Shown piece after piece: positions 5,093 to 5,464 of a stretch of 64,000 nt of DNA. Origin of the DNA: Crassostrea angulata (lineage: Eukaryota); NCBI RefSeq assembly GCF_025612915.1, contig NC_069114.1, forward strand, positions 49,578,639-49,642,638, read 5' to 3'. Every line of letters begins with the position of its first letter. Position 1 is the first letter of the stretch. Under the pieces are notes generated by a model. It worked only from the letters and a program-made list of their open reading frames with translations. It was not told the origin of the DNA and made no database searches. The position numbers and the translations under genes were made by a program.

Positions 5093-5360
5093 GACATCTG
5101 TAAAAGTCTACAGCTGTTTCACATTGTTGAAGTGTGTCTGTCCCGTTTCAGTATGTTGTCCTACCGGTCGGTGGACATCTGTAAAAGTCTACAGCTGTTT
5201 CACATTGTTGAAGTGTGTCTGTCCCGTTTCAGTATGTTGTCCTACCGGTCGGTGGACATCTGTAAAAGTCTACAGCTGTTTGACATTGTTGAAGTGTGTC
5301 TGTCCCGTTTCAGTATGTTGTCCTACCGGTCGGTGGACATCTGTAAGAGTCTACAGCTGG
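5093..5360 (+). repeat. 81-bp tandem triplication spanning NALCN intron/exon junction (acceptor tttcag + first 31 nt of exon)
   Basis: unit starts 5101, 5182, 5263 (partial 4th at 5344); candidate acceptors at 5151, 5232, 5313. Confidence 0.9.
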
Positions 5361-5464
5361 AGGAACTTTTAGCCAGACAGGAACTGGAGTACACCATTGA
5401 GGAGGAAGTAGCTAAACAGACCATCCGGAACTGGCTGGACTCCTGTTTGAAGCGGATCCGGGCA
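5314..5464 (+). CDS. NALCN: NALCN exon ([51 protein letters not shown])
   Basis: cccgtttcag acceptor (third copy of an 81-bp triplication), gtgagt donor at 5465; matches human [52 protein letters not shown]. Confidence 0.85.

What the first reader, a model, noticed from the sequence alone, without database searches (positions are those of the whole stretch)
5093..5464. In-frame 81-bp triplication of a NALCN 3' splice site plus exon start
- Three tandem 81-bp copies each contain cccgtttcag|TATGTTGTCCTACCGGTCGGTGGACATCTGTAA(A/G)AGTCTACAGCTG.
- Only the last copy (exon start 5314) continues into conserved sequence (..[24 protein letters not shown]).
- 81 = 27 codons, and ORF 5132-5479 reads through all copies without a stop.
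- Using an upstream acceptor (5152 or 5233) would therefore insert 27 or 54 aa ([27 protein letters not shown]) in frame, just after the DIV S6/EF-hand-like region of the channel C-terminus.
Basis: seen in the sequence. Interest (0 to 1): 0.6.

Follow-up and report, generated by a model that had tools for sequence, protein, structure and literature searches.

The report
Duplicated splice acceptor in NALCN intron
A short piece of DNA spanning the end of an intron and the start of a conserved exon of the sodium-leak channel gene NALCN has been copied head-to-tail several times, leaving spare in-frame splice acceptors upstream of the real one; this is a real, young repeat, but nothing shows that the spare acceptors are used, and the oldest copy has already decayed.

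Summary
An 81-bp tandem repeat lies at 5093-5359 (3.3 copies, 98% match, no indels). Each unit carries 35 nt of intron tail with a branch-point-like motif, a pyrimidine tract and CAG, plus the first 46 nt of a NALCN exon. The canonical junction 4814|5314 gives a peptide that aligns without gaps to human NALCN 1483-1585 (E 7e-51). Acceptors at 5152 and 5233 would add 54 or 27 aa in frame.

New here:
- A fourth, older, decayed copy sits at 5040-5116. It has its own TAG acceptor and a 16-nt deletion, so using it gives a premature stop.
- Relatives about 80% identical have one copy, so one copy is ancestral.
- Two closer relatives share the left junction. Their k=31 contigs stop exactly 30 nt after the last unique base, which implies at least one extra unit there. 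The array is therefore not an assembly artefact.
- No protein in a 5.8-billion-sequence database carries the insert, and 14 diverse NALCNs have no indel at this site.
- Being in frame and open is about a 0.14 chance event.

Best reading: a young, still-changing intronic minisatellite of decoy acceptors. Functional insert isoforms are possible but untested. Interest is low to moderate.

The parts
4657..4814 (+). Upstream NALCN exon ([10 protein letters not shown]...DVSFHDVI, ends with AG of a split Ser codon). Donor CAG|GTACAC at 4815.
   Evidence: Translation. Aligns to human NALCN 1483-1534. Donor.
4815..5313 (+). Intron (499 nt) that contains the array. The orthologous intron in relatives at about 80% identity is only about 235 nt and has one acceptor.
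5040..5116 (+). Copy 0, an older decayed unit. It has a TTGAC branch-like motif (A5059), the tract tttctgtcctgtctTAG (AG 5085-86), then caactt + GACATCTGTAAAAGTCTACAGCTG. Relative to the other units it has a 16-nt deletion of the exon start and a 6-nt insertion in the tail. Use of this acceptor gives a stop at 5370-5372.
   Evidence: Alignment A2. Motifs and translation. The same sequence is present in L001 and L002.
5093..5359 (+). The 81-bp tandem array as called by TRF (3.3 copies).
5117..5197 (+). Unit 1: 35-nt intron tail (TTTCAC..CCCGTTTCAG, candidate branch A5121, AG 5150-51) plus a 46-nt copy of the exon start. It is a spare in-frame acceptor, and the exon would start at 5152 (+54 aa).
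5198..5278 (+). Unit 2, 100% identical to unit 1. Candidate branch A5202, AG 5231-32. It is a spare in-frame acceptor, and the exon would start at 5233 (+27 aa: [27 protein letters not shown]).
5279..5313 (+). Intron tail of the genuine acceptor (TTTGAC..., candidate branch A5283 30 nt from the 3' end, AG 5312-13). It carries G at 5282, as do both close relatives and the outgroup.
5314..5464 (+). Genuine NALCN exon ((S)[50 protein letters not shown]), matching human residues 1535/6-1585. It includes the Lys equivalent to K1569, which cross-links to calmodulin.
5465..5472 (+). 5' splice site GCA|GTGAGTAC of the exon. It lies outside the repeat, so the repeated units are not complete exons.
8548..8856 (+). 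Related phenomenon in the same gene: a 44-bp x7 array whose last unit supplies the pyrimidine tract of the acceptor of the next exon (caacAG|AAGGAG at 8856|8857). The other units carry ...cttcctgtatctcacattgAG.
9014..9127 (+). Related phenomenon: a perfect 53-nt duplication (spacing 61) of the exon 3' end plus donor (..CCATCTTTG|GTAAGTCA). It is followed by at least 9 decayed copies up to about 10.2 kb.

Best explanation
This is a real, evolutionarily young minisatellite. It arose by repeated tandem duplication (replication slippage or unequal exchange) of an 81-bp segment that straddles an intron-exon boundary of NALCN: the last 35 nt of the intron plus the first 46 nt of the exon.

Each duplication pushes a complete 3' splice-site module, with branch-point-like motif, pyrimidine tract, CAG and exon start, upstream into the intron. 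Only the module still joined to the rest of the exon (acceptor 5313|5314) produces the conserved protein. The upstream modules are spare 'decoy' acceptors that are not maintained by selection. The oldest (copy 0) has already lost 16 nt and would cause a premature stop. The two young ones happen to be in frame.

The array is still turning over. The C at 5120/5201 is a derived change that was itself duplicated.

- **Shown:** the anatomy, the ancestral single-copy state, presence of the array in relatives, and decay of copy 0.
- **Inferred:** that the last acceptor is the main one used, and that upstream use, if any, is minor noise giving +27/+54 aa products or, from copy 0, an NMD substrate.
For: 1. 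**Structure of the array:**
2. **Single copy is ancestral:** L003 and L004, from two read sets at about 80% identity, run from the upstream exon through a ~235-nt intron into the exon with one acceptor.
3. **Shared with relatives, not an artefact:**
   - L001 (17 mismatches per ~1 kb) and L002 (59 per ~1.1 kb) contain the identical copy-0 and left junction.
   - Logan contigs have all 31-mers distinct (PMC12424806).
   - L002 ends 30 nt after the last unique base (5092+30 = 5122). L001 ends 30 nt after its private SNP at 5118 (5148).
   - Their last 30-mers match internal copies of the window exactly, and their last 31-mers do not. This is the k-1 signature of a second copy.
4. **Upstream copies decay:** copy 0 has a 16-nt deletion and gives a stop at 5370-72. 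The donor-side array at 9014-10240 shows the same gradient, from 100% to 60% identity moving away from the exon.
5. **No insert anywhere:** two searches of 5.8 billion proteins found none. 14 diverse NALCN C-terminal domains have no indel from HDV to QTIR.W.
6. **Common background:** tandem arrays are frequent in this window, 15 TRF rows with score >150, several of them the same array listed at different periods.
7. **Derived C at the candidate branch point:** C at 5120/5201 sits at -1 of the candidate branch A. All of copy 3, L001, L002 and the outgroup have G there. The spare modules therefore have a poorer CURAY-type match.
Against: - **Indistinguishable acceptors:** units 1-3 are identical from -31 to +33 around the AG, so nothing in the core signals distinguishes real from spare. 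Classical duplication experiments and intron-definition splicing (my knowledge, not tested here) could favour the acceptor nearest the donor.
- **Weak branch-point argument:** both TTCAC and TTGAC fit yUnAy, so the branch-point argument is weak.
- **No transcript data:** none could be obtained for this or any close species.
- **Homogenisation or turnover:** near-identity of the units (0-2 differences) despite sharing with taxa 2-5% diverged requires concerted evolution or recurrent turnover. This is assumed, not shown.
- **Contig ends:** they could in principle have other causes such as coverage or heterozygosity.
Confidence: 0.68

Rival explanations
1. Functional alternative splicing. The spare acceptors at 5152 and 5233 are used in a regulated way to make NALCN isoforms with 54 or 27 extra residues. 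The insert would lie between the EF-hand-like part of the C-terminal domain and the calmodulin-binding helix, tuning calmodulin or CIH-dependent regulation in this lineage.
For: - The period is 81 = 27 codons with no stop.
- Complete and identical splice modules are present.
- The insertion point (human L1550|E1551) is 19 residues before K1569, which cross-links to calmodulin. It lies in the domain that binds the autoinhibitory CIH.
- The array is present in at least two related read sets.
Against: - In-frame openness is expected about 14% of the time by chance, and another frame is open too.
- Relatives at ~80% identity lack the repeat.
- Copy 0 was allowed to decay into a frameshifting decoy.
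- There is no indel at this site in 14 diverse NALCNs.
- No insert-bearing protein exists in the database.
- The insert falls inside a predicted continuous helix of the canonical domain. The insert isoform models poorly, with pLDDT <50 over residues 56-99 (weak evidence).
- 12 of the 27 residues are translated intron.
Confidence: 0.12
2. Constitutive use of the upstream-most intact acceptor under a proximity or intron-definition rule. The normal NALCN of this species would then carry the 54-aa insert, and the 'canonical' junction would be the minor one.
For: - The acceptors are identical and the first is closest to the donor, giving an intron of 337 nt instead of 499 nt.
- Proximal 3' splice-site preference is widely reported (PMC9984181), although that refers to AGs downstream of one branch site.
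Against: - Copy 0 is closer still to the donor, with an equally good tract (13/17 pyrimidines, TAG) and a TTGAC motif. A pure proximity rule would make the gene produce a premature stop.
- The purine-rich exon sequence (GAGGAAC..., GAGGAGGAAG) lies immediately downstream of only the last acceptor.
- The region is strongly conserved without indels.
- The branch motif is weaker in units 1 and 2.
Confidence: 0.06
3. Assembly artefact or individual-specific copy number. The true genome has fewer or more units than three.
For: - Near-perfect tandem copies are the class of sequence in which copy number is most often misassembled or polymorphic.
- The composition differs from relatives: internal units there carry G where the window has C.
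Against: - Copies are marked by two substitutions in a consistent order (AC|AC|AG|G), and 267 bp is easily spanned by long reads.
- Two independent short-read data sets show the same left junction and the k=31 break expected for at least 2 units.
- This rival concerns only the exact number of units, not the existence of the array.
Confidence: 0.1

Closest known systems
Tandem duplications containing splice signals that create novel introns or alternative splicing (Rogers-type model; Lehmann et al. 2010, PMC2891723)
   Same: A local tandem duplication copies a splice signal. If the unit is a multiple of three, both splice patterns stay in frame. Duplicates are young and lineage-specific.
   Different: In those cases the duplication lies inside coding sequence and a duplicated AG|GY proto-splice site creates a new intron. 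Here it spans an existing intron-exon boundary, so no new intron arises. The old intron is lengthened and gains spare acceptors.
Tandem alternative 3' splice sites such as NAGNAG (PMC3250501; PMC9984181)
   Same: Competing in-frame acceptors lie upstream of one exon.
   Different: NAGNAG sites are 3 nt apart and share one branch site and tract, with the choice made after step 1. Here the sites are 81 nt apart and each has its own branch-like motif and tract, so the choice would be made at branch-site and U2AF recognition.
Internal tandem repeats or minisatellites that remodel exon-intron structure (De Grassi & Ciccarelli 2009, PMC2812944; Zhuo et al. 2007 PNAS, from my memory)
   Same: The minisatellite unit carries splice-site sequences, so copy-number change alters the set of available splice sites.
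   Different: Those examples are mostly primate genes with transcript evidence. Here there is no transcript evidence, and the host is a highly conserved ion-channel domain.
Experimental duplicated 3' splice sites (Reed & Maniatis 1986; Smith et al. 1989/1993 scanning model, cited in PMC9984181; the former from my memory)
   Same: Identical acceptor modules are placed in tandem, which is a natural version of those constructs.
   Different: The outcome here is unknown.
Tandem exon duplication giving mutually exclusive exons (Kondrashov & Koonin 2001, from my memory), including the known alternative pore exons of invertebrate NALCN (Senatore et al. 2013, from my memory)
   Same: Local duplication within a gene as a source of isoforms, and the same gene family.
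   Different: Only 46 of the exon's 151 nt are copied and the exon's donor is not. The units cannot be spliced as independent exons.

Membership tests
NALCN orthologue, C-terminal-domain exon | Sequence homology of the spliced product to NALCN in the correct register | tested here: met
   Gapless alignment to human NALCN 1483-1585, E 7e-51. The upstream window exons hit NALCN fragments carrying PF00520 at up to 73% identity.
Tandem repeat / minisatellite | At least two head-to-tail copies with high identity and constant period | tested here: met
   Period 81, 3.3 copies, 98% match, 0 indels, plus a decayed fourth unit.
Genuine genomic feature (not an assembly artefact) | Seen in independent read sets | tested here: met
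   The left junction is identical in L001 (SRR6063180) and L002 (ERR13913528), and their contig ends fall at unique base + 30. The exact copy number in the window's species was not independently verified.
Functional alternative 3' splice sites | Core signals present (branch motif, pyrimidine tract, AG) | tested here: met
   yUnAy motif 30 nt upstream, 12/17 pyrimidines at -20..-4, CAG. Units 1-3 are identical apart from C/G at -32.
Functional alternative 3' splice sites | Transcripts or peptides that use the alternative sites | not testable with these tools
   No insert-bearing protein or ORF was found among 5.8 billion sequences. No contigs of this species are on record.
Functional alternative 3' splice sites | Conservation of the alternative product in related lineages | tested here: not met
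   Relatives at ~80% identity have a single copy. Copy 0 is frameshifted. There is no indel at the site in 14 NALCNs.
Tandem exon duplication / mutually exclusive exons | Whole exon with both splice sites duplicated | tested here: not met
   The unit holds 46 of 151 exon nt, and the exon's donor at 5465 lies outside the repeat.
Recursive splice site | Juxtaposed acceptor and donor, (Y)nCAG|GTRAGT | tested here: not met
   The junction reads TTTCAG|TATGTT, with no GT after the AG.
Structured RNA element | Rfam match or an unusually stable fold | tested here: not met
   No relevant Rfam hit at E<=1. Fold z-score is -1.8.

The most novel reading that the evidence does not exclude
The array is a lineage-specific, copy-number-variable 'isoform generator'. 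Neurons of this animal would splice to 5152, 5233 or 5314 in regulated proportions. That would give NALCN channels whose calmodulin-binding helix is spaced 0, 27 or 54 residues from the EF-hand-like domain, and so differ in calmodulin or CIH-dependent gating. Together with the two other splice-site arrays in the same gene (8548-8856 and 9014-9127), this would be a case of minisatellite-driven diversification of a very conserved channel.
Probability: 0.08. Interest if true: 0.55.

Novelty: new member of a known kind. Interest (0 to 1): 0.25.

Why it matters
If the spare acceptors are silent, this is an ordinary young minisatellite that happens to sit on a splice junction. Its use is as a natural example of how spliceosomes ignore perfect decoy acceptors, and of how such decoys decay (copy 0).

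If they are used, a strongly conserved regulatory region of the sodium-leak channel would carry a lineage-specific 27 or 54-aa insert next to its calmodulin-binding helix, which could be tested by electrophysiology.

For genome annotation, gene predictors may pick the wrong acceptor here. In the relatives, short-read (k=31) assemblies break at this array.

Tried and rejected
- **Database search for the insert:** two searches of the 5.8-billion-protein collection, with read-through queries containing the insert, found only single-copy relatives and no insert-bearing sequence.
- **Species identification:** a third search with about 480 aa of the window's NALCN gave only 73% identity to a named protein, a Batillaria (gastropod) fragment. 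The species stays unidentified, probably a mollusc or other lophotrochozoan.
- **Exact look-ups:** four window ORFs are not on record.
- **Run accessions:** a full-text search for the four SRA/ENA run accessions found 0 papers.
- **Structured RNA:** Rfam has no relevant hit and the fold z-score is -1.8. Rejected.
- **Recursive splice site:** rejected, because no GT follows the AG.
- **Complete-exon duplication:** rejected, because the exon's own donor lies outside the unit. A crude 9-mer donor count gives GAA|GTGTGT and CCG|GTCGGT 6/9 inside the unit, the same crude score as the real donor at 4815. This count therefore cannot exclude cryptic donors.
- **Enrichment of arrays at exon boundaries:** considered and dropped. 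With about 28 boundaries in about 11 kb, a ~290-bp interval is expected to touch about 0.7 boundaries by chance.
- **AlphaFold2 of the +27 isoform:** low confidence (pLDDT 51), so it is not informative beyond showing no confident fold for the insert.
- **27-nt sub-periodicity within the unit:** only about 11 of 27 matches by eye, so it was not pursued.

Full report
**1. What is there**

Window 5093-5359 is an 81-bp tandem repeat with 3.3 copies, 98% matches, no indels and TRF score 520. The repeat finder gives three 105-nt copies at spacing 81/81 with 100/100/98% identity.

Read in the register of the gene, each unit has two parts:
- 35 nt of intron tail (TTT[C/G]ACATTGTTGAAGTGTGTCTGTCCCGTTTCAG).
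- The first 46 nt of the exon (TATGTTGTCCTACCGGTCGGTGGACATCTGTAA[A/G]AGTCTACAGCTG).

The units lie at 5117-5197, 5198-5278 and 5279-5359. Only two positions differ:
- C at 5120 and 5201 versus G at 5282.
- A at 5104, 5185 and 5266 versus G at 5347, which is a synonymous AAA/AAG Lys change.

**2. The gene**

The upstream exon is 4657-4814. Joined to 5314-5464 it gives GVIPV...[55 protein letters not shown]. This aligns without a gap to human NALCN residues 1483-1585 (E 7e-51).

The junction corresponds to human S1535|M1536. Earlier exons in the window encode the domain III pore to domain IV of NALCN.

The best named relative is only 73% identical, a Batillaria (gastropod) fragment. The species is not identified and is probably a mollusc or other lophotrochozoan.

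**3.

The claim is correct. ORF 5132-5479 crosses all copies and the frame is open from 5087. Splicing 4814 to 5233 adds [27 protein letters not shown]. Splicing to 5152 adds that plus [27 protein letters not shown].

This is weak evidence for function, for three reasons:
- 15 of the 27 codons are exon copy and are open by definition.
- The chance that the period is a multiple of three and that the 12 intron-derived codons lack a stop at 36% GC is about 0.14 (my calculation).
- A second frame is also open across the array (ORF 5007-5372).

**4. A fourth, older copy**

Aligning the units with each other and with the orthologous single-copy sequence of relatives (A2) shows that 5040-5116 is another copy of the same unit. 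It has:
- a TTGAC motif (A5059);
- a tract tttctgtcctgtctTAG (AG 5085-86) that resembles the outgroup acceptor tttctgtcctgtttCAG;
- then caactt plus the last 24 nt of the exon piece.

Relative to the other units it lacks 16 nt of the exon start and has 6 extra nt in the tail. Its pyrimidine tract (13/17) is at least as good as that of the real acceptor (12/17). Using it would shift the frame and give a stop at 5370-5372, 92 nt before the exon's 3' end.

The array is therefore one decayed module, two intact spare modules and one genuine module.

**5. Evolutionary state in relatives**

ORF-type proteins from short-read assemblies led to four contigs.

- **Outgroup, single copy.** L003 (SRR14864986) and L004 (SRR14865014) are about 80% identical. 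Each carries the upstream exon, a ~235-nt intron and the exon with one acceptor in one uninterrupted contig. One copy is therefore ancestral.
- **Close relatives, shared junction.** L001 (SRR6063180; 17 mismatches plus indels over ~1 kb) and L002 (ERR13913528; 59 mismatches over ~1.1 kb) cover window 4150-5148 and 4025-5122. Both contain copy 0 and the left junction ...cttagcaa[c/g]t[t/a]GACATCTGTAAAAGTCTACAGCTGT.TGAC.
- **Where those contigs end.** Both end inside the first unit. In Logan assemblies all 31-mers of an accession are distinct by construction (PMC12424806). A contig must therefore stop k-1 = 30 nt after its last base that distinguishes it from another copy.
  - L002 ends at 5122 = 5092 + 30.
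  - L001 ends at 5148 = 5118 (its private T>G) + 30.
  - Their terminal 30-mers match internal copies of the window exactly (5255 and 5281), and their terminal 31-mers do not.

I take this as good evidence that both relatives have at least one further full unit, although it is not proof. The array is then real and older than the split of these taxa.

The near-identity of the window's units implies ongoing turnover or homogenisation. The G at 5282 is shared by L001, L002 and the outgroup. The C at 5120/5201 is therefore derived in the window's lineage and was itself duplicated, since units 1 and 2 are 100% identical.

**6. Splice signals**

The three intact acceptors are identical from -31 to +33. 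The only yUnAy motifs in the tails are TTCAC (A5121, A5202) and TTGAC (A5283), each 30 nt from the intron end.

The C/G difference is the base just 5' of that A. G fits the common CURAY form and C does not. The spare modules may therefore have a somewhat weaker branch site. This is an inference, and a weak one.

An AG lies 11 nt after each candidate branch A (5131, 5212, 5293). That is within the ~14 nt held in the spliceosome's exit channel (PMC9984181), so it is plausibly skipped.

The purine-rich exon sequence (GAGGAAC..., GAGGAGGAAG) directly follows only the last module. The exon's donor (GCA|GTGAGT, 5465) is outside the repeat, so the units are not complete exons. The junction CAG|TATGTT is not a recursive splice site.

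**7. Would an insert be tolerated?**

- In 14 diverse metazoan NALCN C-terminal fragments there is no indel anywhere from HDV to QTIR.W (A3).
- The insertion point corresponds to human L1550|E1551. That is 19 residues before K1569, which cross-links to calmodulin K95 (PMC8986805).
- The C-terminal domain also binds the autoinhibitory CIH helix (PMC9098444).
- An AlphaFold2 model of a canonical C-terminal domain (pLDDT 73) puts the site inside a long helix spanning residues 84-154 of P0016.
- The +27 isoform models poorly, with mean pLDDT 51 and <50 across residues 56-99. This is not informative on its own.
- No protein with the insert exists in the 5.8-billion-sequence collection.

**8. Context**

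The window is rich in tandem arrays, with 15 TRF rows scoring above 150 (several rows are the same array listed at different periods). The same gene has two more arrays that involve splice sites.

- **44-bp x7 array (8548-8851).** Its last unit supplies the pyrimidine tract of the next exon's acceptor at 8856|8857. The junction 5464|8857 is in phase and reads IRA|KEHTNLISNLR, compare human IRA|KQQQSCSIIHSLR.
- **Duplicated donor (9014-9066 = 9075-9127).** This is a perfect 53-nt duplication of that exon's 3' end plus donor, at spacing 61. It is followed by at least 9 decayed copies up to about 10.2 kb: 11 + strand matches to AACATCTGGTCCAGC-type cores (pattern AACATCCTGGTCCAGC, up to 3 mismatches) against 0.26 expected for both strands.

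In both the acceptor array and the donor array, the copies farther from the functional exon are more decayed. That fits neutral by-products. With about 28 exon boundaries in about 11 kb, arrays touching boundaries is not in itself statistically surprising.

**9. Conclusion**

- **Best reading (about 0.68).** A real, young, still-changing minisatellite born by tandem duplication across an intron-exon boundary. The last acceptor is the functional one. The upstream modules are decoys that are tolerated and eventually decay, and they may leak minor +27/+54-aa or PTC products.
- **Rivals.** Regulated functional insert isoforms (about 0.12), constitutive use of the first intact acceptor (about 0.06), and a wrong or polymorphic copy number in this assembly (about 0.10, which concerns the number of units only).
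- **Known class.** Tandem duplications that copy splice signals (PMC2891723; PMC2812944). It is a new example, not a new kind.
- **What is missing.** Junction-spanning RNA reads, which could not be obtained with these tools.

Noticed in passing
window 8548-8856: A 44-bp x7 tandem array (96-97% match). Its unit carries a pyrimidine tract plus AG (cttcctgtatctcacattgAG). The last unit forms the tract of the real acceptor of the next NALCN exon (caacAG|AAGGAGCAC, exon 8857-9058). This gives about seven more potential decoy acceptors in the same gene.
   Followed up: partly
window 9014-9127 and on to about 10240: A perfect 53-nt duplication (spacing 61, not a multiple of 3) of the exon 3' end plus 5' splice site (..CCATCTTTG|GTAAGTCA). 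It is followed by at least 9 progressively decayed copies of the TAACATCCTGGTCCAGC core, some with GTAAGTCAATCA. The intron downstream looks built from old copies of the exon end and donor.
   Followed up: partly
window 4950-5060; L003 480-575: The intron upstream of the array is itself made of degenerate GTGGA[C/T]ATTGTT-like motifs (30-nt pair 4966-4995 / 5030-5059, 80%). The same motif recurs in the outgroup intron and resembles the exon's GGTGGACATCTGTAA. It is a possible slippage substrate for the duplications.
   Followed up: no
window 18581-19357, 22479-23758, 30665-31530: Three arrays of one ~166-209-bp satellite family share a core, GTGAAA(T/A)TCATGACC. The third is in inverted orientation relative to the first two. 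It is reminiscent of the ~160-170-bp satellites of bivalve molluscs (from memory, not tested).
   Followed up: no
window 27642-28814: A 42-bp x28 tandem array (85% match) that translates as a proline-rich repeat (PLHEPLPLPYTPTT) in one frame. No evidence that it is coding.
   Followed up: no
window 55716-55826: An uninterrupted run of about 111 C (98% match). It could be a sequencing or assembly oddity or a homopolymer tract. There is also a G16 run at 5776-5791 in the NALCN intron.
   Followed up: no
window 5131-5132, 5212-5213, 5293-5294: Each unit has an extra AG (ttgaAGtg) 11 nt after the candidate branch A and 19 nt before the acceptor. The outgroup has ttggCAtg here, with no AG. If used, it would add 19 nt and shift the frame.
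   Followed up: partly
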